This document shows positions 8,011 to 41,352 of a stretch of DNA of 64,000 nt, piece after piece. A model generated the notes under the pieces. It was given only the letters and a program-made list of their open reading frames with translations. It searched no databases and was not told the DNA's origin. Numbering within the stretch: position 1 is the first letter of the stretch; each line of letters opens with the position of its first letter. Where the stretch lies: positions 64,001 through 128,000 of the IMG/VR virus record IMGVR_UViG_3300045988_135716; one strand, 5' to 3'. Source of the DNA: a virus. Position numbers and translations under genes: made by a program.

Positions 8011-8288
8011 CTCAAATTTACAAGAACCTTATAAATTATGAAATGTACGTATGTACATACGTTGTCAACTAAAAATAGAATAAGTGATACATAAGTTGAA
8101 CTACATTATTATAAGAGAATATGTTATTGTGTCGCTCTAGCAATAATTATATCGTGAAAAGCTAAACATCCATTACATAATTCTGTAAAACACTCTTAAT
8201 GGAAGTGCTTGAACATCAAAGACTTATAATAATATTTTCGAAGAGCATTACCAGTTTTATACTGAGATTATATTTAAGGACAAAGAAA
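8011..8288 (+). ncRNA. Putative tracrRNA / omega-RNA-like scaffold fused to the last CRISPR repeat
   Basis: Anti-repeat AGAACCTTATAAATT (8023-8037) is the exact reverse complement of repeat bases 7991-8005. A 16-nt perfect palindrome ACGTATGTACATACGT lies at 8047-8062. The 278-nt non-coding stretch runs up to the IscB-like start, as omega-RNAs do. Boundaries are not determined. Confidence 0.5.
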
Positions 8289-9842
8289 ATGAATTACTTA
8301 GATTTTGCATTTGTAATAGATAAAAATAATAATCCTTGTATGCCTATTTATGAAGGATATGCAGGTAAATTATTGAGAAGTAAAAAAGCAGTTATTGTAA
8401 ATCATGATCCATTAGTTGTACAAAGACACGATGAATATAATGCAGATTTAGAGTTTAGAGATAGAATTACATTAAAAGTAGATACTGGATATGAAAATAT
8501 AGGATTTTCAGTCAGTGATAGTAAACATGAATATTTATCAGGTCAAGTTAAATTGCTTAATGGAATATCTAAGAGGTTATTGGCTAGAAAAGAACATAGA
8601 GGTTGTCGTAGACAAAGATTAAGATATAGAAAAAACAAAGCCATAGACTATAAAACAGTTAATAATCCAACATATAAAAATGGGAATCAAGATGGTTGGT
8701 TAGCACCTTCAATTTTACATAGAATTAATTCGCATTTGAGATTAGTTGATAAAATTGCTTCTTGGATTCCAATTGATAAAGTGATTATTGAAACTGCGAA
8801 CTTTGATATACAGAAAATAAAAGCTATATTAAACGACAAAGAAATTGAAGGAGTCGAATATCAGTTAGGAGAAATGTATGGATTTGAAAATGTTAAACAG
8901 TATGTAAGAGAACGAGACAATTATACTTGTCAAATATGCGAAGCTGGACAAGATAAAGATAAGAAAAATGTTCCTATAGAAGTACATCATATTATTCCAC
9001 GTTCAAAAGGAGGTTCTAATAAGCCAGATAATTTAATTTCGTTATGTAAAACCTGTCATAAAAAAGTTCATATGAATAATAATGACAATGATTTATTTAG
9101 AAAATTGCAACATGATGGAGTGAAAAATACATACAAAGATGCTTCATTTATGAACATCATGAGATGGACGCTATATAATCAGTTAAAAGAAAAATATGAC
9201 GTATCTATATCATATGGTTATATAACAAAATTAAATAGACGAATGGCAAATCTGAAAAAGTACCATTATATTGATGCGTTGTGCATTTCAGATTATCATG
9301 AAATTACACTTACTAAAAATATTTATTTAGTTGAACAAAAACGATGTAATGATAGATGTATGGAATCGTTTTTTGATGCCAAATATATTGATAGTAGAGA
9401 TAATAAAATAAAGGAAGGAACTGAATTATGTAAAGTCAGAAAATCATATGCATCGAGAAGATCTACAAGAAAAGAAGATATTGAAAACAATCGTATTTTT
9501 AGAAAAGAAAAAGTTGAAAAAGGAAGAAGACAATATAGATGTCATTCATATTGTTTAAAAGCAGGAGATTTAGTATATATAAATTATGGAAAACATAAAG
9601 GCAAAATAGCAGAATTTTCAACAATGAAAAAAACTCCAACTGGTTCATATCAAATAAAATTTATTTATGATGGACAAGAATGTAAATGTCCATCAATATC
9701 TATCAAACCAGAAGAGTATATTCAATTAACAACAAATCAATGTGACAAAGTAAAAATTGTACGTACTCGTAGAGGTATGATTTGGCGAAAAACTGATAGA
9801 TTAGAATATGAGTCAAACACACCTGAACAGTATAGACCTTAA
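8289..9842 (+). CDS. iscB: IscB-like RNA-guided nuclease (PLMP, split RuvC, Arg-rich bridge helix, HNH); compact Cas9-like effector
   Basis: Motifs occur in IscB/Cas9 order: NNPCMPI (PLMP), KVDTGYENIGFSV (RuvC-I), RGCRRQRLRYRKNK (RRXRR bridge helix), VIIETANFD (RuvC-II), CQIC..HHIIPRSKGGSNKPDNLISLCKTCHKKVH (HNH), HYIDALC (RuvC-III). ATG 8289 has an AGGA SD 8 nt upstream. The in-frame extension back to 8199 is probably non-coding. Confidence 0.8.
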   Translation: MNYLDFAFVIDKNNNPCMPIYEGYAGKLLRSKKAVIVNHDPLVVQRHDEYNADLEFRDRITLKVDTGYENIGFSVSDSKHEYLSGQVKLLNGISKRLLARKEHRGCRRQRLRYRKNKAIDYKTVNNPTYKNGNQDGWLAPSILHRINSHLRLVDKIASWIPIDKVIIETANFDIQKIKAILNDKEIEGVEYQLGEMYGFENVKQYVRERDNYTCQICEAGQDKDKKNVPIEVHHIIPRSKGGSNKPDNLISLCKTCHKKVHMNNNDNDLFRKLQHDGVKNTYKDASFMNIMRWTLYNQLKEKYDVSISYGYITKLNRRMANLKKYHYIDALCISDYHEITLTKNIYLVEQKRCNDRCMESFFDAKYIDSRDNKIKEGTELCKVRKSYASRRSTRKEDIENNRIFRKEKVEKGRRQYRCHSYCLKAGDLVYINYGKHKGKIAEFSTMKKTPTGSYQIKFIYDGQECKCPSISIKPEEYIQLTTNQCDKVKIVRTRRGMIWRKTDRLEYESNTPEQYRP

Positions 9843-17000: not shown

Positions 17001-17984
17001 TTGAGTCATTTAGTTGAAAATAATAATTCATCTGAGAATGGATTAAGAGTATTAAGTCTATTCGATGGTATATCTTGTGGCAGAATTGCATTGGATAGAG
17101 CTGGATTTAAGGTTAAAGATTATTACGCTTATGAGATTGAACAGAATGCAATCAAGATAAGCAGATATAATTATCCGTCCATTTATCAATGTGGTGATGT
17201 TTTTGATGAAGATTTTAGTAAATATGATGGTATTGATTTGTTAATTGGTGGCAGTCCCTGTACTGAATTTTCAGTAGCAAAGTGTTCTAAAACTGCAAAA
17301 CATAAAAGAGAAGTCGTGCCTGGTGGAGATGGTTGGAAATTGTTTATGCAATATGTAAGAGCGTTACATGAATCGAAACCAAAATATTTTCTATATGAGA
17401 ACAATTATGGCATTGCAGATTCTATACGTGATGCTATCACAAAAGAACTTGGTGTTGAACATGTGCTTTTAGACAGCCAATTAGTTTCAGCTCAAAGACG
17501 TAAGAGATTATATTGGACGAATATTCCAATAAAAGGAGAACCAGAAGATAGAGGAATTTTAGTAAAGGATGTGATTGTAAATGATTCTGAACTAATTAAG
17601 CAGTTTGATGATCGTATTAGAAACACATTAGTCAAATGTGAGAATTACATAAAATATGATTTAAGTGGCAAAGGACATTTTTCTCAGCAAGATAGGATGT
17701 ATTTTCTTAATAATAAAGCACCAACAGTTCCAAGATGTAGAACTGAAACTAAATTTAATGTTTGGTTAGGTGGAGAAACATATAAGAAAACTTGTCCTGT
17801 TGAGATAGAAAGACTTCAAACATTACCAGATGGATATACGGAGTTTGGGTTGAATGAAGATGGAAGCATTGTGAAAATGCCGAAAACAAGAAGATTTGAA
17901 GCTATTGGTAACGGTTGGACTGTTGACATTATAGCTTGGATATTTAGTTTTATGAAGGAGAAACAAGATGCAAATAACAGCTAA
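17001..17984 (+). CDS. DNA (cytosine-5)-methyltransferase
   Basis: Motif I LSLFDGISCG, motif IV GGSPCTEFS, motif VI-like LYENN, QRRKR, motif X IGNGWTV. The TTG start is poorly spaced from the SD, so the start is uncertain. Confidence 0.85.
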   Translation: MSHLVENNNSSENGLRVLSLFDGISCGRIALDRAGFKVKDYYAYEIEQNAIKISRYNYPSIYQCGDVFDEDFSKYDGIDLLIGGSPCTEFSVAKCSKTAKHKREVVPGGDGWKLFMQYVRALHESKPKYFLYENNYGIADSIRDAITKELGVEHVLLDSQLVSAQRRKRLYWTNIPIKGEPEDRGILVKDVIVNDSELIKQFDDRIRNTLVKCENYIKYDLSGKGHFSQQDRMYFLNNKAPTVPRCRTETKFNVWLGGETYKKTCPVEIERLQTLPDGYTEFGLNEDGSIVKMPKTRRFEAIGNGWTVDIIAWIFSFMKEKQDANNS

Positions 17985-18834
17985 AAGCTATTTTAGTGGA
18001 GCAGGAGGAATGGATTTAGGAATAGAGGAATCTGGAATTAACATAATTGAATCGTATGAGATAGATAAAAAGTGTTGCGACACTTTGAGAAAGAATTTCA
18101 AACATCATGTAAATGAGTCAGATATTACACAGATTACAGTTCTCGATCAGAATGATGCGGATGTTTATATTGGTACATTTCCATGTACACGATATTCAAC
18201 CATTGCTGATATTTCAGGTATAAGAACAGGTGATGATTTATTTTTACATTTCTTTAGGCATATTGCTTTAGCACAACCAGAAATGTATGTAGTAGAAAAC
18301 GTTCCTGGAATGCTTAAATTCAAAGTAGTTATGGAAGCATTGACAAAATTACCTGATTATTACGTGAGAGTTGAATGTCCTATTAACGCAAATATGTGGT
18401 TGCCACAAGAAAGAAAACGATTGATTCTAATTGGAAGTAAGAAACCATTTACCAATTTTGATTATCCTGATTCTCAACCATTAAAACTGAAAGATATTAT
18501 CGAAAATGATGCTTCGATTGATATTCCACAATATGTATATAATCGCATTAATGGAAAATATAGAGATAAACCAATTGTTTCAGATCCAGATAATGATGAT
18601 CTTGCTCCAACATGTGTAGCGCATTACGCAAAAGATAAAGGAACAAGATTAATCAAAGATGGAAAGAGAATTAGACCATATACAGTAAGGGAATATGCTA
18701 GACTGCAAGGTTTTCCAGATTGGTTTGAGTTCTGTGGAACAGATAATGATGCTTATAGACAGATTGGTAATGCTGTTGCTGTTCCAATGGGACGTTGGAT
18801 TGGCAAACAGATTGTAAAATATTTTAATTCATAA
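17968..18834 (+). CDS. DNA (cytosine-5)-methyltransferase (second copy, divergent)
   Basis: Motif I YFSGAGGMDLG, motif IV GTFPCTRYS, motif VI VVENVPG, QERKR, motif X IGNAVAVPM; AAGGAG SD. Confidence 0.85.
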   Translation: MQITAKSYFSGAGGMDLGIEESGINIIESYEIDKKCCDTLRKNFKHHVNESDITQITVLDQNDADVYIGTFPCTRYSTIADISGIRTGDDLFLHFFRHIALAQPEMYVVENVPGMLKFKVVMEALTKLPDYYVRVECPINANMWLPQERKRLILIGSKKPFTNFDYPDSQPLKLKDIIENDASIDIPQYVYNRINGKYRDKPIVSDPDNDDLAPTCVAHYAKDKGTRLIKDGKRIRPYTVREYARLQGFPDWFEFCGTDNDAYRQIGNAVAVPMGRWIGKQIVKYFNS

Positions 18835-20245: not shown

Positions 20246-20794
20246 ATGAAAAGACAAAAAGCAAATAAAAAGATCCAAAATATTGTTGGAAATATTTGTT
20301 GCAATTGCGGAAAAACAGATCATATAGAATATCATCATATAGTTCCGTTGTCATTGGGAGGAAATGATATTGAATCAAATATTGTTCCAATATGTCATGT
20401 TTGCCATATGGCAGCTCATCATGGTAGGAATATCAATCATTACTTTGGTTCATTCAATAAAGGTGGAAGACCTTCAATCGCTAATATTGAAGACGATTAT
20501 AATATTTTTGATATGTATATAAATGGTGAAATTGGAAATAGAATGGTAAAACAAATGCTTGGATATTCTGATTCAACACAAATCAAAGATAGATCTGTTT
20601 TTAAAAAATACATAAAATCTAAAGGTATAAGTAGTATAAAAAATATCATAGATGTAGCAGCAACAAATAGATCCGATGGATTAAAAAATGGAGATGTAGT
20701 TGGAGAAATTATATATGAAGATGGTAGGCATGAAGATATTATTTATAAAGATACAGGATATAATCTTGTAGAATACCATCATCGTTGTAGTTGA
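20246..20794 (+). CDS. HNH endonuclease
   Basis: CCNCGKTDHIEYHHIVPLSLGGNDIESNIVPICHVCHMAAHHG is a canonical HNH motif. Confidence 0.85.
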   Translation: MKRQKANKKIQNIVGNICCNCGKTDHIEYHHIVPLSLGGNDIESNIVPICHVCHMAAHHGRNINHYFGSFNKGGRPSIANIEDDYNIFDMYINGEIGNRMVKQMLGYSDSTQIKDRSVFKKYIKSKGISSIKNIIDVAATNRSDGLKNGDVVGEIIYEDGRHEDIIYKDTGYNLVEYHHRCS

Positions 20795-22116: not shown

Positions 22117-23480
22117 ATGAACTACGAAGATTTTCTAAAACAAAAGGATTATGTTCTGGAAAGTAGTGGATTTAATATTGATAAAGATAAATTAAATCCC
22201 ATGCTATTTGACTTTCAGAAAGACGTAGTAAGATGGGCATTAGCAAAAGGTAGAGCTTGTATTTTTGCAGAGTGTGGGCTTGGTAAAACGCCAATGCAAT
22301 TATCATGGGCGCATCAAGTACATCTACATACGGGCGGTAAAGTTTTAATTCTTGCACCTCTATCGGTTGCGGATCAGACAAAGAGAGAATCTGAAAAATT
22401 CCATTACAATGCAAAAGTATGTGAGAAACAGGAAGATTGTATTGATGGAATCAACATTACAAACTATGAGAAATTAGACAAATTCGTAGCAAATGAATTT
22501 GTTGGAGTAGTCTTAGACGAGAGTTCAATTCTTAAATCCTACACTGGTAAAGTGAGGACTTCTATTATCGAGAATTTCCAAAATGTTCCCTATAAATTAG
22601 CTTGTACTGCGAACCTGCCCCAAATGATTATATGGAGTTGGGAAATCATTCGGAATTTTGTGGAGTTATGACACGTTCAGAGATGTTATCAATGTTCTTT
22701 GTTCATGATGGTGGTCAAACATCTAAGTGGAGATTAAAAGGTCATGCAAAAGATGTATTTTGGCAATGGATGGCAAGTTGGTCTGTATTTATTGATAATC
22801 CATCAAATTTAGGATATGACGGTACAGATTATGAATTACCTAATTTGAATATTCATGAAATTATAGTTGATGGAGATGAACCAATCACTGAATCACTCAC
22901 ATTAACAGAGCGTAGAAATGCAAGAAAAGATACTCTTGAATTAAGATGTCAAAAAGCAGCAGATTTAGTAAATAATTCAGATGAACAATGGTTAGTCTGG
23001 TGTGATCTTAATGCAGAAGGCGATAGATTGAATGAACTGATTGAAGAAAGTAAAAACGTTCAAGGAAGTGATAAGAATAAATACAAGAGTGAAACAATGC
23101 TATCATTTTCTGATGAAAAATTAAAATGTCTTATCAGCAAGCCACAGCTCGCAGGATATGGCATGAATTGGCAGAATTGCCACAATGTTATTTTTACTGG
23201 ACTTTCTGATAGTTTTGAGCAATATTATCAGGCTGTAAGAAGATGTTGGCGTTTTGGTCAGACAAAAGAAGTCAATGTATACATAATCATTTCAGCAAAA
23301 GAAGGTTGTGTAAAAGAGAATATTGAAAGAAAGCAATTAGATTTCATTACTATGAGAGATGCAATGATTAATCTGACTAAAGAAATTACTAAGAAAGAGC
23401 TTAAATCAACGTGTAGGCTTACTACACCATATGAAGCAAATACAACAATGAAATTACCAAATTGGGAGGAATTCAAATAA
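22117..23480 (+). CDS. SNF2/DEAD-like superfamily 2 helicase, reading frame broken by an apparent -1 frameshift near 22612-22616
   Basis: Motif I ECGLGKTPMQ, motif II VVLDESS, motif III region LACTA|N|PAPNDYMELGN split between track ORFs 22117-22671 and 22602-23480. C-terminal motifs GYGMNWQ and AVRRCWRFGQ are present. Confidence 0.75.
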
Positions 23481-24388
23481 TGATGAACGTAATTGATCAA
23501 GCAGTAGCAAATAGATATGCACTTTATCATGGAGACAGTGTAGAAATTACTAAGGAGATTCCAGATAATAGCATTCACTACACTATCTTTTCACCACCAT
23601 TTTCACAGTTATATGTGTACTCTAATTCAGATAGAGATATGGGTAATTGTAAAGGTGATGAAGAATTCTATAATCATTTCAAATATCTTGCAAAAGAATT
23701 ATATAGAATTACAATGCCTGGACGACTTCTGAGTTTTCATTGTATGGATTTACCTCTTATGAAATCAAGAGATGGTGTAATTGGATTAAAAGATTTTCCT
23801 GCGCTCATGCTTAAAATCTTTCAGGATTGTGGATTTATCTATCATAGTAAAGTAACTATTTGGAAGAATCCTGTTACAGAAATGCAAAGAACAAAAGCAC
23901 TTGGGCTTTTACATAAACAGATTAAGAAAGATAGTAGTATGAGTCGTCAAGGACTTCCAGATTATGTGATCACGGTTAGGAAGCCTGGTGATAATCCAGA
24001 ACGAGTTGAACACACAAATGAATCATTTCCTGTTAATGTATGGCAAAATTACGCTTCACCTGTATGGATGGACATTAGGCAGAGTGATACATTACAGAGA
24101 AAATCAGCAAGATCTGAACAGGATGAGAAACATATTTGTCCATTACAGCTTGAAGTAATTCAGAGATGTATTGAATTATGGACGAATCCAAACGATATTG
24201 TGTTTGATCCGTTTGGTGGAATTGGTTCTACTCCATATGTTGCACTTAAATTAGGAAGAAGAGGAATTGCAAGTGAATTAAAAGATAGTTATTTTGAGCA
24301 GTTGAAGAAAAATGTAGAGTCTGTGGCTGCCGAAGAACCAGAATTATTTCCAGTTGGAGAAAAGAGTATTGAGGATGTAGTCGCATAA
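23480..24388 (+). CDS. N4-cytosine / N6-adenine DNA methyltransferase (beta class, N6_N4_Mtase-like)
   Basis: Catalytic SPPF (IFSPPFSQ) lies N-terminal to the SAM-binding DPFGGIGST. TAATG overlap with the helicase; GGGAGGA SD. Confidence 0.8.
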   Translation: MMNVIDQAVANRYALYHGDSVEITKEIPDNSIHYTIFSPPFSQLYVYSNSDRDMGNCKGDEEFYNHFKYLAKELYRITMPGRLLSFHCMDLPLMKSRDGVIGLKDFPALMLKIFQDCGFIYHSKVTIWKNPVTEMQRTKALGLLHKQIKKDSSMSRQGLPDYVITVRKPGDNPERVEHTNESFPVNVWQNYASPVWMDIRQSDTLQRKSARSEQDEKHICPLQLEVIQRCIELWTNPNDIVFDPFGGIGSTPYVALKLGRRGIASELKDSYFEQLKKNVESVAAEEPELFPVGEKSIEDVVA

Positions 24389-27820: not shown

Positions 27821-28429
27821 ATGATGAACAATTTTTTAAACGGGATGTTTGGGAAAATTGGAAGTGGAATGTGTAGGCTTTCAATGAATGGAGGAATTGC
27901 AGTAAAAACATCAAACGGTTACAAAAGCTACAATGTTAAAACAGGTAAACTTACTAATTGTAGCAATTTTGTGTTTGATATTGGAGAAGAATTTTTCTTT
28001 GTAATTCCAACAAATAAAGTAGAAAAAGGTGATATTATTTTAGTTAATAATAAACCAAAATGTGTCATTGAATCTGATAAAACTAAAATTACTGTAATCA
28101 ATTATGAAGATTCAACAGTAGAAACTATTTTACCTGAGAGACATGTATTTATGGGTAATACATATTTTTATGGGAAAATTGTTTCAATGTTTGGATGTGA
28201 TATTTTAAAAGGAAAGAAAGGCACAAACAATATTTTTAAATATATGATGCTTTCACAAATGATGAAAGGTGAAAACAATTCTTCTGGAATGCTAAATGGA
28301 AATAGTGGAGGAATGAGTGCTATGTTACCATTTATGATGATGGGTGGAAATATGGGAGAAATGTTTGATGGAATGTTTGATTTTGATACAGACAATGATA
28401 CAAATGTAGAAGAAGAGGAGGAAGCATAA
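27821..28429 (+). CDS. hypothetical protein with Gly/Met-rich then acidic C-terminal tail
   Basis: TAGGAGGA SD; C-terminal ..NSGGMSAMLPFMMMGGNMGEMFDGMFDFDTDNDTNVEEEEEA. Confidence 0.7.
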   Translation: MMNNFLNGMFGKIGSGMCRLSMNGGIAVKTSNGYKSYNVKTGKLTNCSNFVFDIGEEFFFVIPTNKVEKGDIILVNNKPKCVIESDKTKITVINYEDSTVETILPERHVFMGNTYFYGKIVSMFGCDILKGKKGTNNIFKYMMLSQMMKGENNSSGMLNGNSGGMSAMLPFMMMGGNMGEMFDGMFDFDTDNDTNVEEEEEA

Positions 28430-28430
28430 T

Positions 28431-29309
28431 ATGGGATGTGGATCATGGACAAGAGCTAGTTATACAAGTTATTCAAAATCAGTAGGAAGAAGTGTTTCAA
28501 AAGATGGAACAATTAGTGGTTCTTATTCTAATCAGGATATGTTCAAAGCTACAAATATTGATCCTGCACTGAATCCCAAAAATGTAATCAGAGAATGTTG
28601 CGACACAGAAGAACATCCAAATACAGTTCCAGTTATTTTAGCATTAGATGTTACTGGATCTATGGGACAAGCTGCCGTTGAAGTAGCAAAGAAACTCAAT
28701 GTAATTATGACTAAATTATATGAGAAAGTAACAGATGTTGAATTTCTCATTATGGGGATTGGAGATTTAGCATGTGACTTTTATCCTATTCAAGCTTCTC
28801 AGTTTGAATCAGATATTCGTATTGCTGAACAGCTTGATAAAATTTATTTTGAATTTGGTGGTGGTGGAAATAATTACGAGTCTTATACCGCAGCATGGTA
28901 TTTTGGTTCTCGTCATACAAAGCTTGATTGTTTAAATCGTGGAAGAAAAGGAATTATCATCACTATGGGAGATGAACAGCTTAATCCATATCTTCCGTTA
29001 AGAGGTCGTTATAGCGGATTGATTGAAGCAACAGGGGATAATCTTCAAGATGATGTAGAAACAAAAGATTTATATAATGAAGTTTCTAAAAAATTTAATA
29101 TTTATCATTTAGATGTAAATCATGGTCGTAGATGGGACGAAGATGAGATTGAAACATCTTATAGAAAATATCTTGACGATGTTCATTTTAGAAAAGTGAC
29201 TATGGATAGTATTACGAATGAAATTGTAGACATTATCATTAATGAAGCAGAAAATAATGTAGTAAATTCAGTTACAAAATCTTCTGGTTCAGAAGAAATT
29301 ACATGGTAG
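28431..29309 (+). CDS. von Willebrand factor A (vWA) domain protein
   Basis: MIDAS-type DxSxS motif in VPVILALDVTGSMGQAAVEVAKKL; the start lies 2 nt after the upstream stop. Confidence 0.7.
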   Translation: MGCGSWTRASYTSYSKSVGRSVSKDGTISGSYSNQDMFKATNIDPALNPKNVIRECCDTEEHPNTVPVILALDVTGSMGQAAVEVAKKLNVIMTKLYEKVTDVEFLIMGIGDLACDFYPIQASQFESDIRIAEQLDKIYFEFGGGGNNYESYTAAWYFGSRHTKLDCLNRGRKGIIITMGDEQLNPYLPLRGRYSGLIEATGDNLQDDVETKDLYNEVSKKFNIYHLDVNHGRRWDEDEIETSYRKYLDDVHFRKVTMDSITNEIVDIIINEAENNVVNSVTKSSGSEEITW

Positions 29310-29326
29310 AATAGGAGAATTAAAAG

Positions 29327-30427
29327 ATGAAAGACATTAAGATTGTAATTGGAGCAAATTTTGGGGATGAAGGAAAGGGCTTGATGACAGATTATTTTTC
29401 GCAAAAATCCAATAGCATTGTTGTGTGTTCAAATGGTGGAGCGCAAAGAGGACATACTGTAACAACGCCAACTGCAATTAGACATGTCTTTCATCATTTT
29501 GGATCAGGTACATTTAATAACGCAAGTACATATTTATCTGAGGATTTTATTCTTAATCCAATTATTTTTAAACAAGAATATGATGAGTTAGTAAAACTTA
29601 ATCATAATCCAAATGTATATATTAATCAAAATTGCATGATAACAACTCCATTTGATATGATAGCTAATCAAATCGTTGAGGAAAGCCGTGGTAAAAATAA
29701 ACATGGTAGTTGTGGATTAGGGGTTTTTGAGACAATTAAAAGATATAGAGCTGGTGTAACTGATTTAGATTACAATATTAAAGAATACTATTTGGAACAA
29801 CTTAAAAAGGAGGACATTGAATTATCAGGCGAATGGTTGAAAATCTTTTTTGATAATGGTATATTTGAACATTTCTTAGAAGACTTGGATTTTATGAATA
29901 GCCATTCATTGTGTATTTCAGATGAATATTTCTTAAATCAGTATGACAATATTATTTTTGAAGCAGCACAAGGGCTTTTACTTGATCAAAATAATATTGA
30001 TTATTTTCCACATCTTACCCCATCTAACACTGGAATTAAAAATCCCAAGAAAATAATTGAAAATATTGAATGGAATGATGATATAAATATTGAAACTTGT
30101 TATGCATCTCGTACTTATTTAACAAGACATGGCGCAGGGAAATTTCCATCAGAATGCAATAAAAATTTTATTAACGAATATATGTATGATAAAACAAATG
30201 TTCCAAATCCTTTTCAAGATAGATTAAGATATGGATATCTTAATCTAAGAGAACTATATAATAGATGTTCTGATGATATTGGAGATTTTGGAAACACAAA
30301 ATCAATTGCAATTACCCATTGTAACGAATATGACAAATGGGATAATGATTTGCTTATAAATTTATTTAATGATTGGAATATTTATTATTCTGATGGAGAA
30401 ACCCGAAATGATGTAGATTTAAGATAA
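29327..30427 (+). CDS. Short adenylosuccinate synthetase-family enzyme (PurA/PurZ-like)
   Basis: Collinear with PurA motifs: GDEGKG, GGAQRGHT (compare GGHNAGHT), HHFGSG, GSCGLGV, FEAAQGLLLD (compare FEGAQGTLLD), TPSNTG, TRHGAGKFPSE. At 366 aa it is shorter than bacterial PurA, as in archaeal PurA and phage PurZ. Confidence 0.8.
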   Translation: MKDIKIVIGANFGDEGKGLMTDYFSQKSNSIVVCSNGGAQRGHTVTTPTAIRHVFHHFGSGTFNNASTYLSEDFILNPIIFKQEYDELVKLNHNPNVYINQNCMITTPFDMIANQIVEESRGKNKHGSCGLGVFETIKRYRAGVTDLDYNIKEYYLEQLKKEDIELSGEWLKIFFDNGIFEHFLEDLDFMNSHSLCISDEYFLNQYDNIIFEAAQGLLLDQNNIDYFPHLTPSNTGIKNPKKIIENIEWNDDINIETCYASRTYLTRHGAGKFPSECNKNFINEYMYDKTNVPNPFQDRLRYGYLNLRELYNRCSDDIGDFGNTKSIAITHCNEYDKWDNDLLINLFNDWNIYYSDGETRNDVDLR

Positions 30428-30456
30428 ATAAAATGTTGTTTTCAAAGGAGGATAAG

Positions 30457-31041
30457 ATGAAAAGACAGATAAGAAAATTAGTTTTTGAGACAAATTCATC
30501 AAGCACACACGCTATTTGCATTACAAAAAAGAAAGATAATTATAAACTTCCAAATCATATTGATTTTGAATTTGGTGAGTTTGGGTGGGAATATGGTGAA
30601 TATAGTGATACACGTAATAAAGCATCATATTTAATTACTGCAATTTTTAGTTTTAGCAAAAGTGAAGCAGATGAAAACCTTACACGATTAAAAAATATTT
30701 TGGATTCTCATAATATTACATATTCAATTCCAGAACCAAAAGTTGAATTAGATAGGTGGAGAGGAAAAGAATATTATTATTATGATATTGGTGATAATTA
30801 CATTGACCACGTAAGAGAAACGCAAGACTTTGTAGATGCGGTTTTATCAGATTCAGAAAAGTTATTTAGATATTTATTCGGAGATTCTTTTATTATTACT
30901 GGTAATGACAATGACGATAGCTACAGGGATAGAATGTGTATCTATGAAGGTGAAGAAGAAACAGATTATGGATGCTATCCGATTTACGGAGATTTAAAAC
31001 CTGAATTTAATGATTATGAAATTTATGAGAAAGGAAATTAA
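30457..31041 (+). CDS. hypothetical protein, ETNSSS-motif family (paralogue 1)
   Basis: AAAGGAGG SD. The N-terminus MKRQIRKLVFETNSSSTHAI is almost identical to that of the next gene. Confidence 0.7.
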   Translation: MKRQIRKLVFETNSSSTHAICITKKKDNYKLPNHIDFEFGEFGWEYGEYSDTRNKASYLITAIFSFSKSEADENLTRLKNILDSHNITYSIPEPKVELDRWRGKEYYYYDIGDNYIDHVRETQDFVDAVLSDSEKLFRYLFGDSFIITGNDNDDSYRDRMCIYEGEEETDYGCYPIYGDLKPEFNDYEIYEKGN

Positions 31042-31044
31042 ATT

Positions 31045-31341
31045 ATGAAGAGACAAATTAGACGAGGTGTATTTGAAACTAATTCATCAAGCGTACATAG
31101 CTTAACAATGTGTACACAATCAGATTATGATAGATGGAAAAATGGAGAACTTATTTATGATTATTGGGATGGTAAGTTAATTTCAACTGACGAATTAGAT
31201 GATGATTATGAAGAAGGAAGATATTATACATATGAGAATTTTAATGATTATGAACAATTTGATTTTGAAACATATGAATATGACTTTACGACAGAAAATG
31301 GTGATACGGTAGTTGCATTTGGATATTACGGTCACGATTGA
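31045..31341 (+). CDS. hypothetical protein, ETNSSS-motif family (paralogue 2, short)
   Basis: N-terminus MKRQIRRGVFETNSSSVHSL; acidic/aromatic C-terminal part. Confidence 0.7.
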   Translation: MKRQIRRGVFETNSSSVHSLTMCTQSDYDRWKNGELIYDYWDGKLISTDELDDDYEEGRYYTYENFNDYEQFDFETYEYDFTTENGDTVVAFGYYGHD

Positions 31342-31356
31342 TTAGGAGGATTAAGA

Positions 31357-32247
31357 ATGGGATTATTAGGAAGATATAAAAACGGTAACTTTGTGACAAC
31401 TATTTTAAGTGACGGAACAAAAATTAGAGAAACAGAAGATGATGAATTTATTCCTTCATTTGCTGAAAATATGGATATAAAAATTTGCAACTATTGTGAT
31501 ATGGGATGTAAATTTTGTCATGAGGGTAGCACAATAAATGGCAAGTTTGGTAATATTTTAAATGAAAAATTTGTTGATACTTTACATCCATATCAAGAAG
31601 TTGCGATTGGCGGTGGTGATGCAACCAGTCATCCTGATTTAATTCCATTCTTACAAAAACTAAAAGAACGAAAAGTTATTGCAAATATGACTGTTAATCA
31701 GATCCATTTTGAAAAGAAGCATGAATTAATAAAGAGATTAGTCAATGAGAAATTAATCTATGGTCTTGGCGTTTCGTTAGTAAATCCCACAAAACATTTT
31801 ATTGAACTTATAAAACAATATCCAAATGCAGTTATTCATGTAATTAATGGTGTATTAAAACCATCTGATATAAAAGCATTAGAGAATAATAATTTAAAGA
31901 TGTTAATTCTTGGGTATAAACATTTGCGTAGAGGTAATGAGTATTTTGAAGAAGAACAGAATGATATTGAGACTAAGCAGCAATGGTTATATGAAAATCT
32001 TGAAGATATTATTCAGAAATTTAAAGTTGTAAGTTTCGATAATCTTGCCATTGAACAGTTGAATGTAAAAAGATTATTAACACAGGAAGAATGGGATGAG
32101 TTTTATATGGGTGATGACGGAAAAGTTACATATTATGTTGATATGGTAGAGCGTAAATTTGCTCAGAGTTCAACTGCTCCATTTGATAAAAGATACGATT
32201 TACTTGATTCAGTAGACGATATGTTTCATGTTATTACAAATTTATAG
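31357..32247 (+). CDS. radical SAM enzyme
   Basis: CX3CX2C cluster in ICNYCDMGCKFCHEG and a GGE-like IGGGDATSHPD segment; TAGGAGGA SD. Confidence 0.75.
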   Translation: MGLLGRYKNGNFVTTILSDGTKIRETEDDEFIPSFAENMDIKICNYCDMGCKFCHEGSTINGKFGNILNEKFVDTLHPYQEVAIGGGDATSHPDLIPFLQKLKERKVIANMTVNQIHFEKKHELIKRLVNEKLIYGLGVSLVNPTKHFIELIKQYPNAVIHVINGVLKPSDIKALENNNLKMLILGYKHLRRGNEYFEEEQNDIETKQQWLYENLEDIIQKFKVVSFDNLAIEQLNVKRLLTQEEWDEFYMGDDGKVTYYVDMVERKFAQSSTAPFDKRYDLLDSVDDMFHVITNL

Positions 32248-32257
32248 AGGATATGAT

Positions 32258-32485
32258 ATGACAGAACAAGAAATGATTGAATATTTAAAATCAACAGGAC
32301 TATACGAAGAACATGAAGATTTCTTTTATGAAAAAGAAATGCTAAATACAAATAAAACTGTTCCAATTAGTGATCTTGTTGAAAGATTTATTGGAATTGA
32401 TAAAGAATTTGAAGGAAGACCTTGGAATATCTTACAAATTCTTACAAATATTAATATGATTATTCCTGTAGAGGATAGAAAATAA
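32258..32485 (+). CDS. hypothetical protein
   Basis: The ORF opens at 32228; ATG 32258 follows an AGAGGA SD. Confidence 0.6.
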   Translation: MTEQEMIEYLKSTGLYEEHEDFFYEKEMLNTNKTVPISDLVERFIGIDKEFEGRPWNILQILTNINMIIPVEDRK

Positions 32486-33033: not shown

Positions 33034-33891
33034 ATGCCAACAAGAGATGATCTAGGAACTAGAATGAAAACTTTTTATGAGGAAATTCCAAAAACAAAAC
33101 TTATGCGTCGCTGTCCAGTTACTATTAGAATTGATGGAAAAGCATTCCATACATTTACAAGAGGATTTCAAAAACCATTTGATGAAGTTTTAATTGAAGC
33201 TATGCAGAAAACAATGAAATATCTTTGTGAAAATATCCAAGGATGTGTATTGGGATATACTCAGTCTGATGAGATTACATTGATTCTGGTTGACTATAAG
33301 AAATTAAATTCTTCTGCATGGTTTGATTATGAAGTTCAGAAAATGTGCAGTATCGCAGCGAGTATGGCTACAATGGCGTTTAATAGATTTTTCATGTATG
33401 AATATGAAGAGTTTAATAGATGGGTTAATGAAGGAAATCCAACAGATGAAGATAGACGATTAAATGATATTTATTATGATGCGATGTGTAAAGGTGCAAT
33501 GTTTGATGCACGTTGTTTCAATATTCCAAAAGAAGAAGTAACAAATCTTATCTACTGGCGACAATTAGACGCTTCTCGTAATTCAATTCAGATGGTAGGT
33601 CAAGCCAATTTCTCTCATAAAGAACTACAAAATAAATCATGTAATCAAATTCAGGATATGTTAATGGAGCAAAAAGGTATCAATTGGAATGATTTACCGA
33701 CATATCAGAAAAGAGGGGCTTGTTGTATTAAAAATAGCCATATAGTTAGATGTTCATCAGATGGAACAGAACTTTGTATAATTAAAGATCCTGGAAAACC
33801 CACAAATGAATGGATTATTGATAAAAATATTCCTATTTTTAAAGGATGTAAGAGGGAATATATTGATAAGTTAATTAATGTAGGAGAATGA
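33034..33891 (+). CDS. Thg1-like protein (tRNA-His guanylyltransferase family, 3'-5' nucleotidyltransferase)
   Basis: The N-terminal half matches Thg1/TLP hallmarks: ..RMKTFYE...CPVTIRIDGKAFHTFTRGFQKPFDEVLIEAM...GYTQSDEITLIL, including the catalytic D of RIDG and the SDE carboxylates. Confidence 0.75.
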   Translation: MPTRDDLGTRMKTFYEEIPKTKLMRRCPVTIRIDGKAFHTFTRGFQKPFDEVLIEAMQKTMKYLCENIQGCVLGYTQSDEITLILVDYKKLNSSAWFDYEVQKMCSIAASMATMAFNRFFMYEYEEFNRWVNEGNPTDEDRRLNDIYYDAMCKGAMFDARCFNIPKEEVTNLIYWRQLDASRNSIQMVGQANFSHKELQNKSCNQIQDMLMEQKGINWNDLPTYQKRGACCIKNSHIVRCSSDGTELCIIKDPGKPTNEWIIDKNIPIFKGCKREYIDKLINVGE

Positions 33892-35297: not shown

Positions 35298-35843
35298 ATG
35301 AAAAAGCATATTGATGTAGATTTTAATTGCGGAATGACAATTGAAGAAGCTGTTAAATACTTACACCAGTTGTCATATAAAACTGGTAAGGATTATTGTG
35401 GAGCTTTTAATGGTAATACTTTAAGTTCTGATATGACAGTAGATGAAGCATATGTTAAATGTATTGGTAAAACATTTAAAGAATTTAAAGATGAAAAAGA
35501 AAAAATGAGACAAGATTTAATCAGGAGAGAAGAAGAACATAAAAAGAAAATTCCAGAACTAACAAAATATTGGATTAAAGAAGGACATAAAGTTTTATCA
35601 CAAGACAAATGGGACGAATGGGATAGATGTGTACCTATCAGATTAGGTGATCTGTACAAAGGAATGGAGTTAGGTCAATGTTTAGATATTATTAAAACTG
35701 TTAAGGATAATTCTATTGTCGCAGGTATTGAAGTAATGAAGAATCAAGGTCACTCAGGAATGTCTTGGGGACTTATGAAATCTATGATTTATACATTTTG
35801 CGATTGTGGTAACGAATTTGTTGAAGCTTTAGATAATATGTAA
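35298..35843 (+). CDS. hypothetical protein
   Basis: GGAGGG SD; 181 codons. Confidence 0.7.
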   Translation: MKKHIDVDFNCGMTIEEAVKYLHQLSYKTGKDYCGAFNGNTLSSDMTVDEAYVKCIGKTFKEFKDEKEKMRQDLIRREEEHKKKIPELTKYWIKEGHKVLSQDKWDEWDRCVPIRLGDLYKGMELGQCLDIIKTVKDNSIVAGIEVMKNQGHSGMSWGLMKSMIYTFCDCGNEFVEALDNM

Positions 35844-40260: not shown

Positions 40261-41352
40261 ATGAATAATAAAACATTTAATCCATTAAATGTAAGCAGTA
40301 AATTTGCAATCTGTGGGCTACCAATAAGAGTAGATACATATAAAACTTGTAGTTTTGGATGTAAATATTGCTTTTCAAATTACAGAAAGATTATGGAATT
40401 TGAGAAACAATTACAAGTAGCGAATATCAAATCTGTAGAAAGAAAACTGGATAAAATACTTAACAAGAAAGAAGTAAATCCTGAAAATTTCTTAGATGTA
40501 TTAATTTCACAAGGATATGACTGGCATTGTGGTGGAATGAGCGATCCATTTCAACCAGTAGAACAGAAACTTCAAATTACAAAACAGTTGATTGATATAA
40601 CAAATCAGTATGATATACATATTTTGTTTAGCACTAAATCTGATACAACTTATAATTGTGATATAAAACCAGAATTACATACATTTCAATTGTCTGTTAC
40701 TAACACTAATGATAGAGTAGATTTTGAGCCAAATGTACCAGATATTTCAAAAAGATACAAATTCTATAAATCTCTTAAAGAACGTGGATTTAAAGTAGGT
40801 ATTAGAATCCAACCGTTTATCCCAGATATTTCCACATTAGACATAATAGAAAAATTTAAAGATGCTGATCATTTCACAATTGAAGGATTGAAACTTGTTC
40901 CACAAAATAAGCAACATAAAGATTACTTGCTTGAATTAACAGGATTACATCATTCTGATTTTACACAAATGGGATTATTGAATTTAAAACCAGAAATAAG
41001 AAATGAATTATATAAGCCATTTATTGATAAGCTGCAAGAATATGGAATCTCATATAGTATTGCTGATAATGATTTACATCATTTAGGAACGTCAAAGTGT
41101 TGTTGTGGAGACACTTTGATACATAAAAGTACAGATTTTAATAATACGTCAATGATATGTAGATATGGAATCAACTATACAAGAGAACAGTTAAATAAAG
41201 AACTTAAAAGGTGTAGTGTTGATTGTTGTAAATGTAATCAGTTATTTACATCTAATAGGCAAGAAGGATGTGTAACAGTACAGGATTTTTATAATAAGAG
41301 GTTCGATAGAAAATCAAGTCCATTTAGTCCTAAATTTCTGTATCTAAATTAA
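40261..41352 (+). CDS. radical SAM enzyme, SplB/COG1533-like (spore-photoproduct-lyase-like DNA repair family)
   Basis: CX3CX2C cluster in VDTYKTCSFGCKYCFSNY near the N-terminus, as in COG1533 proteins; preceded by a 215-nt non-coding leader. Confidence 0.65.
   Translation: MNNKTFNPLNVSSKFAICGLPIRVDTYKTCSFGCKYCFSNYRKIMEFEKQLQVANIKSVERKLDKILNKKEVNPENFLDVLISQGYDWHCGGMSDPFQPVEQKLQITKQLIDITNQYDIHILFSTKSDTTYNCDIKPELHTFQLSVTNTNDRVDFEPNVPDISKRYKFYKSLKERGFKVGIRIQPFIPDISTLDIIEKFKDADHFTIEGLKLVPQNKQHKDYLLELTGLHHSDFTQMGLLNLKPEIRNELYKPFIDKLQEYGISYSIADNDLHHLGTSKCCCGDTLIHKSTDFNNTSMICRYGINYTREQLNKELKRCSVDCCKCNQLFTSNRQEGCVTVQDFYNKRFDRKSSPFSPKFLYLN

What the first reader, a model, noticed from the sequence alone, without database searches (positions are those of the whole stretch)
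29327..30427. Short PurA-family enzyme in a phage: candidate PurZ (2-aminoadenine / Z-base pathway) or a new nucleotide-modifying ligase
The 366-aa ORF is collinear with adenylosuccinate synthetase motifs (GDEGKG, GGAQRGHT, HHFGSG, GSCGLG, FEAAQGLLLD, TPSNTG, TRHGAGKFP). It has the short, archaeal-like length typical of phage PurZ, which makes N6-succino-2-amino-dAMP from dGMP on the way to dZTP. Described Z-genome phages also carry a dATPase (DatZ, HD domain) and a MazG-like MazZ. I could not recognise either in this window, and the replicase here is DnaE-type rather than DpoZ or PrimPol. So this is either a Z-cluster in a new polymerase context or a PurA-like enzyme recruited for something else. 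If the genome contains Z, reads still report A, so the sequence alone cannot decide.
Basis: partly seen in the sequence, partly recalled or inferred. Interest (0 to 1): 0.7.

Follow-up and report, generated by a model that had tools for sequence, protein, structure and literature searches.

The report
PurA-like ligase with vWA partner
The phage gene is a real relative of adenylosuccinate synthetase, but it is not the PurZ enzyme that makes 2-aminoadenine DNA; it belongs to a large uncharacterised third branch of the family that always sits next to a von Willebrand-A-type partner gene and has a remodelled substrate pocket, which suggests purine-nucleotide chemistry that has not yet been described.

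Summary
It is not PurZ. It keeps the catalytic Asp that all 147 known phage PurZ/PurZ0 replace with Ser. It scores 38.7 bits against a cut-off of 300 on NCBI's PurZ model. It forms a separate clade (NJ bootstrap 100/100). Neither the window nor a 93-99% identical 176-kb relative genome encodes DatZ, MazZ, DutZ/DmtZ or any HD/MazG protein. It is not a housekeeping PurA either (96 vs 402 bits). The phosphotransfer residues (D13, K16, H41, Q224, T239) are invariant. However, three of the four side chains lining the acceptor-base pocket are re-fixed (N38Q, T129C, V273H). The inter-subunit phosphate clamp R143 is lost, and the aspartate loop is replaced. The family is very large (2,329 clusters at 50% identity with E<=1e-30). 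It occurs in cluster C mycobacteriophages, large Vibrio and Rhizobium phages, gut phages and many bacterial chromosomes. In 77 of 78 informative loci a divergent vWA/MIDAS protein (here 28431-29309) lies directly upstream. Cellular copies often add a J-domain pseudokinase and an NrtR-type regulator. I found no functional report for this clade. Best reading: an active NTP-dependent purine C6-aminating ligase with altered substrates that works together with its vWA partner.

The parts
29327..30427 (+). PurA-superfamily ligase of the third (non-PurA, non-PurZ) clade, phrog_1211, 366 aa. The P-loop GDEGKG retains the catalytic Asp. It has His43 (E. coli H41), Gln215 (Q224) and Thr231 (T239). Family-specific residues are Gln40 (N38Q), Cys129 (T129C), His268 (V273H) and the loop T290-N-V-P-N294..Q297..R301.
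28431..29309 (+). Obligate partner gene (phrog_2971, 292 aa): a divergent von Willebrand A domain with the MIDAS-like motif D73-V-T-G-S77. It has an invariant N-terminal Met-Gly followed by Trp6, and a disordered C-terminal tail ending in a conserved hydrophobic-hydrophobic-x-aromatic motif (here I-T-W).
29313..29317 (+). Shine-Dalgarno AGGAG, 9 nt before the ligase ATG. The gap to the partner's stop codon is 17 nt and contains no terminator, so the two genes are co-transcribed.
   Evidence: sequence printed
27821..28429 (+). Clade-specific upstream ORF (202 aa) with a Gly/Met-rich region and an acidic tail. Its stop lies 1 nt before the partner ATG. It occupies the position held by the J-domain pseudokinase in cellular loci and is present in 20 of 84 loci (gut-phage clade only). 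It is a possible accessory component; its function is unknown.

Best explanation
The gene encodes an enzymatically active member of a third, uncharacterised clade of the adenylosuccinate-synthetase (PurA) superfamily. It works together with the vWA/MIDAS protein encoded immediately upstream. Shown: the residues that carry out PurA chemistry are invariant. These are the P-loop Asp13/Lys16, His41, Gln224, Thr239 and the TRxG motif, which together allow NTP-dependent phosphorylation of a purine 6-oxo group followed by displacement of the phosphate by an amine. Shown: the residues that select the acceptor base (N38, T129, V273), clamp its phosphate (R143 from the other subunit) and bind L-aspartate (the ATTGRRR / TTVT loop, R303, R131) are replaced by different residues that are fixed across the family. 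Shown: the gene is almost never found without its vWA partner, in either phages or bacteria. Inferred: the enzyme converts a 6-oxopurine nucleotide other than, or held differently from, IMP or dGMP into an N6-substituted adenine-type nucleotide. The amine is probably not free L-aspartate. The vWA partner probably acts as an obligate subunit, adaptor or substrate. It does not feed a 2-aminoadenine (Z) DNA pathway. The biological role in the phage (nucleotide or NAD-related metabolism, signalling or counter-defence) is unresolved.
For: Superfamily membership and an intact catalytic core. D13, K16, H41, Q224 and G225 are conserved in 148/148 diverse members, and T239 in 145/148. Not PurA or PurZ by curated models: 96 vs 402 bits and 38.7 vs 300 bits. 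Separate clade: 100/100 NJ bootstrap. Re-fixed positions that are otherwise conserved in all Asp-using enzymes (PurA + PurZ + PurZ0): N38Q, H110D, T129C, A136T, V273H. The roles of these positions come from the S-2L PurZ structure paper PMC8342488: N49/T132/Q190/V241 line the base pocket, R146 clamps the phosphate, the TTVT tip contacts Asp, and E. coli R303 contacts O2' and Asp. Partner linkage: present in 77 of 78 loci with enough upstream sequence, on the same strand, usually <150 nt away. Co-occurrence in cultured phages is complete: 200/10/6 vs 201/10/6 Mycobacterium/Rhizobium/Vibrio records. Pairwise E-values for the partner are 9e-52 to 2e-39. The partner has a vWA fold (pLDDT 86; Foldseek probability 1.0). 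Both genes are under purifying selection, with dN/dS 0.075-0.135. The family is very large: 2,329 clusters at E<=1e-30. Cellular loci add a J-domain pseudokinase and an NrtR-type nucleotide-sensing regulator.
Against: No biochemical data exist, so the substrates are inferred only from residue changes. The alignment of the aspartate loop is ambiguous: two MAFFT runs place the family's invariant Gln and Arg differently. PurZ also has a divergent loop yet still uses aspartate, so loop divergence alone does not prove loss of aspartate use. The window protein itself has Arg at the position aligned to R303 in one of the two alignments. The AlphaFold model of the ligase was poor (pLDDT 67, active-site loops <50), so pocket geometry could not be examined. 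A physical interaction with the vWA protein is inferred only from gene linkage.
Confidence: 0.6

Rival explanations
1. PurZ: the enzyme makes N6-succino-2-amino-dAMP from dGMP and the phage has a 2-aminoadenine (Z) genome, in a new DnaE-polymerase context.
For: It belongs to the same superfamily and has a PurZ-like length (366 aa). Position 11 is Phe/Tyr as in PurZ, not Trp as in PurA. PHROG and RefSeq give this family the same product name as real PurZ.
Against: Asp13 is retained in 148/148 family members, whereas 147/147 phage PurZ/PurZ0 have Ser (PMC12884076). The PurZ HMM scores 38.7 bits against a cut-off of 300. PDB PurZ and PurZ0 score 26-34 bits against 146 for bacterial PurA. The clades are separate (99-100/100). 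No DatZ, MazZ, DutZ/DmtZ, HD or MazG gene is present in the window or in the 176-kb relative. The sets of PurZ phages and of phages carrying this family do not overlap. The same module also sits in bacterial chromosomes among housekeeping genes.
Confidence: 0.03
2. Auxiliary canonical adenylosuccinate synthetase: the enzyme still makes adenylosuccinate from IMP, aspartate and GTP to boost adenylate supply during infection, and the vWA protein is only a regulator or scaffold.
For: The whole catalytic core is conserved, as is one Arg of the Asp loop (R305-equivalent in 145/148). The nearest solved relatives are bacterial PurA. Large phages often carry nucleotide-metabolism genes; for example, the gene lies next to anaerobic RNR genes in Vibrio phage pv27.
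Against: It scores far below all PurA equivalog cut-offs. Three base-pocket residues and the phosphate clamp, which are conserved in every IMP- or dGMP-using enzyme compared, are replaced in the family. The Asp-loop tip, R131 and R303 are not conserved. Position 333, the guanine-specificity Asp, is Asn in half of the family, including the window protein. An obligate vWA partner, a J-domain pseudokinase and an NrtR-type regulator have no counterpart in purine biosynthesis.
Confidence: 0.22
3. Protein-directed ligase: the amine nucleophile is a protein amino group, most attractively the invariant, flexible N-terminal glycine of the vWA partner. The product would be a covalent protein-purine nucleotide conjugate.
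For: The partner's N-terminus is M1-G2 in 236/240 sequences with Trp6 in 233/240, which is unusual conservation for a cytosolic N-terminus. Residues 1-4 are disordered in the model. The residues that bind the aspartate beta-carboxylate (R303, R131) are lost, while polar residues (His273, Gln) that could hydrogen-bond a peptide backbone are gained. The gene linkage is strict.
Against: This is purely inferential. No PurA-family enzyme is known to modify a macromolecule. The conserved N-terminus could instead be a docking or regulatory element. No fusion proteins were found.
Confidence: 0.1
4. Non-catalytic or NTPase-only role: the PurA-like protein acts as a P-loop NTPase switch or chaperone for the vWA protein, by analogy with MoxR-vWA pairs.
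For: NTPase-vWA gene pairs are common in bacteria (established knowledge). The J-domain protein in cellular loci points to chaperone involvement.
Against: Residues needed only for acceptor-nucleotide chemistry, not for NTP hydrolysis (Asp13 general base, Gln224, Thr239), are invariant across 148 diverse members.
Confidence: 0.05

Closest known systems
Bacterial adenylosuccinate synthetase PurA (e.g. E. coli, PDB 1ADE/1CG0)
   Same: Same fold and superfamily (PF00709). It is the nearest solved relative (146 bits with the family profile). The catalytic residues are identical: Asp13, Lys16, His41, Gln224, Thr239 and the TRxG motif.
   Different: About 24% identity and a score far below the equivalog cut-offs. 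The base pocket is changed (N38Q, T129C, V273H). The dimer phosphate clamp R143 and R131 are lost. The ATTGRRRR aspartate loop is replaced by TNxPNxxQGxLR. K331 becomes H/C and D333 becomes D/N. The C-terminal domain is about 50 aa shorter. The gene always has a vWA partner.
PurZ / PurZ0 of Z-genome phages (phiVC8, S-2L, Arthrobacter and Gordonia phages; PDB 6FM1, 7ODX, 7VF6)
   Same: A phage-encoded PurA paralogue of similar length, with Phe/Tyr at position 11.
   Different: PurZ has Ser in place of the catalytic Asp13, keeps N38/T129/V273 and the TTVT Asp-loop tip, derives from the archaeal-type branch, and is clustered with DatZ/MazZ or DutZ/DmtZ. None of these features applies here.
'PurA-like adenylosuccinate synthetase' of cluster C mycobacteriophages (Bxz1, Pleione gp268, I3), Vibrio phages Va1/pv27/phiKT1024 and Rhizobium phages RHph_* (phrog_1211)
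   Same: Same clade (27-37% identity), same signature residues, and the same upstream vWA partner.
   Different: These proteins are annotated only by homology and have no assigned function. Mycobacteriophages additionally carry the kinase-like gene. The window phage instead carries a clade-specific 202-aa ORF at that position.
NTPase-vWA pairs and the TerY-P triad (vWA + Ser/Thr kinase + phosphatase) of bacteria (resemblance recalled from established literature, not tested)
   Same: A MIDAS-containing vWA protein encoded next to a P-loop enzyme and, in cellular loci, next to a kinase-like protein.
   Different: Here the P-loop protein is a PurA-type ligase, not an AAA+ ATPase. The kinase-like protein is a J-domain pseudokinase. 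No phosphatase is present.

Membership tests
PurZ / PurZ0 (succino-amino-deoxyadenylate synthase) | Ser replaces the catalytic Asp13 of PurA (100% of 147 phage PurZ/PurZ0; PMC12884076) | tested here: not met
   The window protein has G-D-E-G-K-G. Asp is present in 148/148 family members, and Ser in all 6 PurZ/PurZ0 references.
PurZ / PurZ0 (succino-amino-deoxyadenylate synthase) | Scores above the curated cut-off of NCBIfam NF038379 (amino_Aden_PurZ) | tested here: not met
   38.7 bits against a cut-off of 300.
PurZ / PurZ0 (succino-amino-deoxyadenylate synthase) | Groups phylogenetically with PurZ/PurZ0 | tested here: not met
   In the NJ tree the family is monophyletic at 100/100 and PurZ+PurZ0 are separate at 99/100. 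PDB PurZ/PurZ0 score 26-34 bits against 146 for bacterial PurA. No archaeal PurA sequence was included in the tree.
PurZ / PurZ0 (succino-amino-deoxyadenylate synthase) | Genome also encodes dATP/dGTP-pool enzymes (DatZ + MazZ/DUF550, or DutZ/DmtZ/DUF5664) | tested here: not met
   No phmmer hit at E<=0.1 in the 176-kb relative genome, and only non-significant hits (E>=0.039) in the window. No HD or MazG Pfam domain was found in the candidates.
PurZ / PurZ0 (succino-amino-deoxyadenylate synthase) | Virion DNA contains 2-aminoadenine in place of adenine | not testable with these tools
   This requires LC-MS/MS or a restriction assay of virion DNA.
Canonical PurA (adenylosuccinate synthase, equivalog) | Scores above the curated equivalog cut-offs (NF002223, TIGR00184) | tested here: not met
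   96 vs 402 bits and 83 vs 395.6 bits.
Canonical PurA (adenylosuccinate synthase, equivalog) | Catalytic residues Asp13, Lys16, His41, Gln224 | tested here: met
   Invariant in 148/148 family members, including the window protein.
Canonical PurA (adenylosuccinate synthase, equivalog) | IMP pocket N38, T129, V273 and the inter-subunit Arg143 | tested here: not met
   N38Q (145/148), T129C (139/148) and V273H (148/148), and R143 is not conserved. Residue roles are taken from PMC8342488.
Canonical PurA (adenylosuccinate synthase, equivalog) | Aspartate-binding loop (T300, T301, R303, R305) and R131 | tested here: inconclusive
   The loop is replaced by the family motif TNxPNxxQGxLR. R131 and R303 are not conserved, and one Arg is retained. 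The alignment in this loop differs between two MAFFT runs.
Adenylosuccinate synthetase superfamily (Pfam PF00709) | Pfam gathering score reached | tested here: met
   119.2 bits against 27, E=2.4e-34.
von Willebrand A domain (partner 28431-29309) | vWA alpha/beta fold | tested here: met
   The AF2 model has pLDDT 86 and pTM 0.87. Foldseek matches integrin I-domains, TFIIH p44/Ssl1 and pilus adhesin vWA at probability 1.0 with TM 0.4-0.5.
von Willebrand A domain (partner 28431-29309) | MIDAS motif DxSxS-type at the end of the first beta strand | tested here: met
   D73-V-T75-G-S77 is invariant or near-invariant in alignments A2/A3, at the end of strand 66-73.
von Willebrand A domain (partner 28431-29309) | Match to a curated vWA sequence model (Pfam/NCBIfam) | tested here: not met
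   No Pfam, NCBIfam or PDB-sequence hit. The relationship is detectable only by fold.
Known anti-phage defence systems (PADLOC-DB v2) | HMM match of any component | tested here: not met
   No hit for the ligase, the partner, the J-domain pseudokinase or the NrtR-like protein.

The most novel reading that the evidence does not exclude
The PurA-like enzyme uses a protein amine, most plausibly the invariant flexible N-terminal glycine of its vWA partner, in place of free aspartate. This would create a covalent protein-purine nucleotide conjugate through C6 of the base. That type of post-translational nucleotide linkage has not been described for any system. It would be used by both large phages and bacteria, and in bacteria it would be under the control of a J-domain pseudokinase and an NrtR-type nucleotide sensor.
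Probability: 0.1. Interest if true: 0.9.

Novelty: new variant of a known kind. Interest (0 to 1): 0.6.

Why it matters
PurA-family genes in phage genomes are now often taken as markers of 2-aminoadenine (Z) DNA, and database product names already mix the two groups. This analysis shows that a third branch is not PurZ. That branch includes about 200 cluster C mycobacteriophages, large Vibrio and Rhizobium phages, abundant human-gut phages and many bacterial chromosomes, and it is probably the largest group of phage PurA homologues. A one-residue test (Asp versus Ser in the P-loop) plus the vWA neighbour separates it cleanly from PurZ. The clade keeps the machinery for activating a purine 6-oxo group but has a rebuilt acceptor and amine pocket and an obligate vWA/MIDAS partner. 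It is therefore a concrete, testable candidate for new nucleotide chemistry, such as a new N6-substituted purine nucleotide or possibly a protein-nucleotide conjugate. Cultured phages and bacteria that carry the module are available for experiments.

Tried and rejected
1. PurZ hypothesis: rejected (see the membership tests).
2. DatZ/MazZ search: phmmer with --max against all stop-to-stop ORFs >=40 aa of the window and of the 176-kb relative gave nothing significant. ORFs picked by an HD-motif regex were scanned with Pfam; they contained EcoRI-methylase-like, calcineurin-like phosphoesterase, DUF3800 and HNH domains, but no HD or MazG.
3. Downstream genes as part of the module: the two phrog_28997 paralogues, the radical SAM gene and the Thg1-like gene were considered and rejected. 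Window 30445-32483 is absent from the close relative, and none of these genes recurs in other loci.
4. Known defence system: there were no PADLOC hits.
5. AlphaFold model of the ligase: pLDDT 67 with disordered active-site loops, so I did not use it for pocket analysis or fold search.
6. Sequence-profile search of the partner against PDB sequences: zero hits even at E<=10. Only the fold search identified it as vWA.
7. Fusion proteins linking the ligase, the partner, the pseudokinase or the regulator: none found. Longer ORFs were over-called starts.
8. Nine literature searches with varied terms (PurA-like, vWA, J-domain, NrtR, Bxz1, and active-site residue names) found no functional study of this clade.
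9. tRNA and Rfam scans of the window: empty.
10. A first bootstrap script timed out. It was rerun with vectorised distances.
Full report
OBSERVATION. All seven quoted motifs are in the translation. Pfam PF00709 (adenylosuccinate synthetase) matches at E=2.4e-34 over residues 6-284. PHROG phrog_1211 matches at E=5.6e-62, and solved bacterial PurA structures match at E about 1e-15. Compared with homologues of 80-84% identity, dN/dS is 0.075-0.10. The window has about 30% G+C and all long ORFs are on the + strand. It is 77-99% identical, in aligned blocks, to an unannotated 176-kb 'Bacteriophage sp.' record from human faeces, MT835469. The DnaE-type polymerase (59433-62702), RecJ, a DnaB-like helicase and SSB are confirmed.

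IS IT PurZ? No.
(i) A 2026 survey found that the catalytic Asp13 of PurA is replaced by Ser in all 147 phage PurZ/PurZ0 sequences, while 99% of cellular PurA keep Asp (PMC12884076). The window protein has G-D-E-G-K-G. In a MAFFT alignment of 148 diverse family members, Asp is present in 148/148, whereas all six PurZ/PurZ0 references have Ser.
(ii) NCBI's PurZ model scores 38.7 bits against a cut-off of 300.
(iii) A family profile scores 146 bits on bacterial PurA structures, 82 on archaeal short PurA, and only 26-34 on PurZ (6FM1, 7ODX) and PurZ0 (7VF6). The protein is therefore not 'archaeal-like'.
(iv) In a neighbour-joining tree the family is monophyletic in 100/100 bootstraps, PurZ+PurZ0 are separate in 99/100, and PurA forms its own group in 71/100.
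(v) No homologue of DatZ or MazZ (S-2L, phiVC8), or of the DutZ/DmtZ-region genes of a PurZ0 phage, is found in any stop-to-stop ORF of the window or of the whole 176-kb relative. ORFs picked by an HD-motif regex have no HD or MazG domain.
(vi) tblastn with phiVC8 PurZ finds 201 phage records (Arthrobacter, Microbacterium, Gordonia, Acinetobacter, Vibrio podoviruses). The window protein finds a different set.

IS IT HOUSEKEEPING PurA? No. It scores 96 bits against 402 on the best PurA equivalog model and shares about 24% identity with PurA. I searched systematically for positions that are conserved in all aspartate-using enzymes compared (3 PurA + 4 PurZ + 2 PurZ0, at least 8 of 9) but fixed to another residue in at least 90% of the family. 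This gave five positions: N38Q, H110D, T129C, A136T and V273H. According to the S-2L PurZ crystal-structure paper, the equivalents of N38, T129, Q224 and V273 line the pocket that holds the base of the acceptor nucleotide. An Arg from the other subunit (E. coli R143) pairs with its phosphate. The TTVT loop tip contacts aspartate, and E. coli R303 contacts both O2' and aspartate (PMC8342488). In this family Q224 is kept, but the other three pocket side chains are re-fixed. R143, R131 and R303 are not conserved. The loop reads T-N-x-P-N-x-x-Q-G-x-L-R where PurA has A-T-T-G-R-R-R-R and PurZ has T-T-V-T-K-x-x-R-R. The guanine-specificity position D333 is Asp in half of the family and Asn in the other half, including the window protein. 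From memory, E. coli D333N switches the donor from GTP to XTP. The phosphotransfer and general-base machinery (D13, K16, H41, Q224, T239, TRxG) is invariant. The protein therefore looks like an active ligase whose acceptor, amine and possibly NTP donor differ from those of PurA and PurZ. Caveat: the aspartate-loop alignment is ambiguous between runs, and PurZ shows that a divergent loop can still bind aspartate.

THE PARTNER. The ORF directly upstream (28431..29309, 292 aa, phrog_2971; stop 17 nt before the ligase ATG, which has its own AGGAG, and no terminator between them) has a homologue directly upstream of the PurA-like gene in three distant phages: Vibrio phage pv27, Rhizobium phage RHph_Y65 and Mycobacterium phage Pleione (E=9e-52, 1e-41 and 2e-39). 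I fetched 80 diverse genomic loci (34-52% identity) from Bacillota, Pseudomonadota, cyanobacteria-related lineages, Acidobacteriota, Chlorobiota and others. The partner was present on the same strand immediately upstream in 77 of the 78 loci that had enough upstream sequence. The single exception has a truncated ligase ORF. In cultured phages the two genes co-occur completely: the partner is in 200 Mycobacterium, 10 Rhizobium and 6 Vibrio records, and the ligase in 201, 10 and 6. The partner has no Pfam, NCBIfam or PDB-sequence match. A confident AlphaFold model (pLDDT 86, pTM 0.87) is a von Willebrand A fold, matching integrin I-domains, TFIIH p44/Ssl1 and pilus-tip adhesins at probability 1.0. 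Its D73-x-T-x-S77 motif sits at the MIDAS position. Both termini are strongly conserved: M1-G2 in 236/240 sequences, W6 in 233/240, and a disordered tail ending in hydrophobic-hydrophobic-x-[W/F/L] in about 229/240. The partner is also under purifying selection (dN/dS 0.08-0.135).

WIDER SYSTEM. Clustering all flanking ORFs from 84 loci revealed only two further recurrent families. The first is a protein of about 349 aa, immediately upstream of the partner in 41 loci. It has a DnaJ J-domain (HPD) fused to a protein-kinase-like domain that has lost the HRD Asp and, in most members, the DFG Asp, so it is a pseudokinase. Pleione gp265 belongs to this family. The second is an NrtR-type regulator (non-catalytic NUDIX + NrtR winged helix), present in 45 loci and often divergently transcribed. 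It scores 138 bits on NCBI's ADPR-responsive repressor model, below that model's cut-off. Flanking genes in isolate genomes and large MAG contigs are housekeeping genes (HtrA-like protease, FeoB, fatty-acid hydroxylase, GntR-aminotransferase). These copies are therefore chromosomal islands and not obvious prophages. The gut-phage genome has neither the pseudokinase nor the regulator. Instead, a clade-specific 202-aa ORF with an acidic tail (27821-28429) abuts the partner. The genes downstream of the ligase (two phrog_28997 paralogues and a radical SAM enzyme) lie in a 2-kb segment missing from the close relative and are not part of the module. None of the components matches a PADLOC defence family.

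SIZE AND STATE OF KNOWLEDGE. An exhaustive search of 1.84 billion representative proteins found 2,329 clusters (50% identity) at E<=1e-30. The partner family has more than 5,700 clusters at 90% identity. Nine literature searches found no functional study. The 2026 NAR paper counted 481 phage PurA homologues, of which 147 are PurZ/PurZ0, and used the rest only as an outgroup. RefSeq applies the product name '2-aminooxy adenylosuccinate synthetase' both to real PurZ and to this clade, which invites false Z-genome calls.

MECHANISM (shown versus inferred). Shown: this is an intact PurA-type catalytic core with a rebuilt acceptor and amine pocket, strictly co-inherited and co-transcribed with a MIDAS-bearing vWA protein. 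It lacks the Z pathway, and it occurs in both phages and bacterial chromosomes. Inferred: the enzyme phosphorylates the 6-oxo group of a purine nucleotide that is not held in the way IMP or dGMP is. Loss of the phosphate clamp is compatible with a larger, possibly dinucleotide, acceptor. The enzyme then couples the activated base to an amine that is probably not free aspartate, and the vWA protein acts as subunit, adaptor or substrate. Two circumstantial links point toward NAD/ADP-ribose-related metabolism. One is the NrtR-type regulator. The other is the proximity of the module to PRTase-like and NMNAT/NUDIX genes in Rhizobium phages. Neither link is tested. My probabilities are: non-canonical ligase working with the vWA partner, 0.6; canonical AdSS with a regulator, 0.22; protein-directed conjugation to the partner's N-terminal Gly, 0.1; NTPase-only role, 0.05; PurZ, 0.03.

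VERDICT. The PurZ interpretation is not supported. The gene is a new member of an uncharacterised but widespread variant of the PurA superfamily. Its interest lies in the conserved vWA + PurA-like module and the chemistry it implies, not in Z-DNA.

Noticed in passing
window 30433-32247: Two tandem paralogues (30433-31041 and 31045-31341; phrog_28997) share the N-terminus MKRQIR(K/R)xVFETNSSS(T/V)H and are followed by a radical SAM gene (31357-32247; PF04055, E=7e-7). The segment 30445-32483 is absent from the otherwise 93-99% identical relative MT835469, so it is a recent insertion or deletion.
   Followed up: partly
window 33034-33891: A Thg1-like tRNA-His guanylyltransferase / 3'-5' polymerase gene (PF04446, E=8e-30; phrog_4717, E=8e-90), although ARAGORN finds no tRNA gene in the 64-kb window.
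   Followed up: no
window 17001-18834 and 23462-24388: Two adjacent, slightly overlapping C5-cytosine DNA methyltransferase genes, plus an N6/N4 DNA methyltransferase. The phage invests in methylation-based protection, not base replacement.
   Followed up: no
window 2642-3592, 8199-9842, 20246-20794: Three HNH-type endonuclease genes (HNH_3; RRXRR+HNH; HNH). These are probably homing endonucleases scattered through the replication and early region.
   Followed up: no
window 27821-28429: A 202-aa ORF with a Gly/Met-rich low-complexity stretch and a strongly acidic tail (…DFDTDNDTNVEEEEEA). Its stop lies 1 nt before the vWA gene, and it is found only in the gut-phage clade (20 of 84 loci). It sits where cellular loci have the J-domain pseudokinase. 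The acidic tail could be a MIDAS ligand; this is an untested idea.
   Followed up: partly
window 35298-35843 and 40261-41352: A weak, sub-threshold hit to the Thoeris inhibitor Tad3 (E=0.008, 16 bits vs cut-off 27), and a second radical-SAM-like protein (E=3e-4, below cut-off). Neither can be relied on without further work.
   Followed up: no
loci L003:3547-4677, L043:2326-3375, L078:4015-5067 (and 38 more): The J-domain (HPD) + kinase-like protein encoded upstream of the vWA gene in 41 loci has lost the HRD catalytic Asp and, in most members, the DFG Asp. It is therefore a J-domain pseudokinase, an unusual domain combination.
   Followed up: partly
RefSeq records NC_023737 (Pleione gp268), NC_070967 (RHph_Y65 gp019), OR413349 (pv27) vs NC_027118 (phiVC8 p27), NC_054424 (Litotes gp48): The product name '2-aminooxy adenylosuccinate synthetase' is applied both to true PurZ/PurZ0 (Ser13) and to this Asp13 clade. 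This is an annotation lumping that can lead to false predictions of Z-genomes.
   Followed up: yes
window 1-64000: All long ORFs are on the + strand. G+C is 28-33%, and GC skew is positive in every 2-kb bin, so cumulative skew rises monotonically and no replication origin or terminus switch lies within the window. One 98%-identical copy of the vWA protein occurs on a 7.3-kb contig of an Anaerobutyricum hallii assembly, which hints at a Lachnospiraceae host.
   Followed up: no
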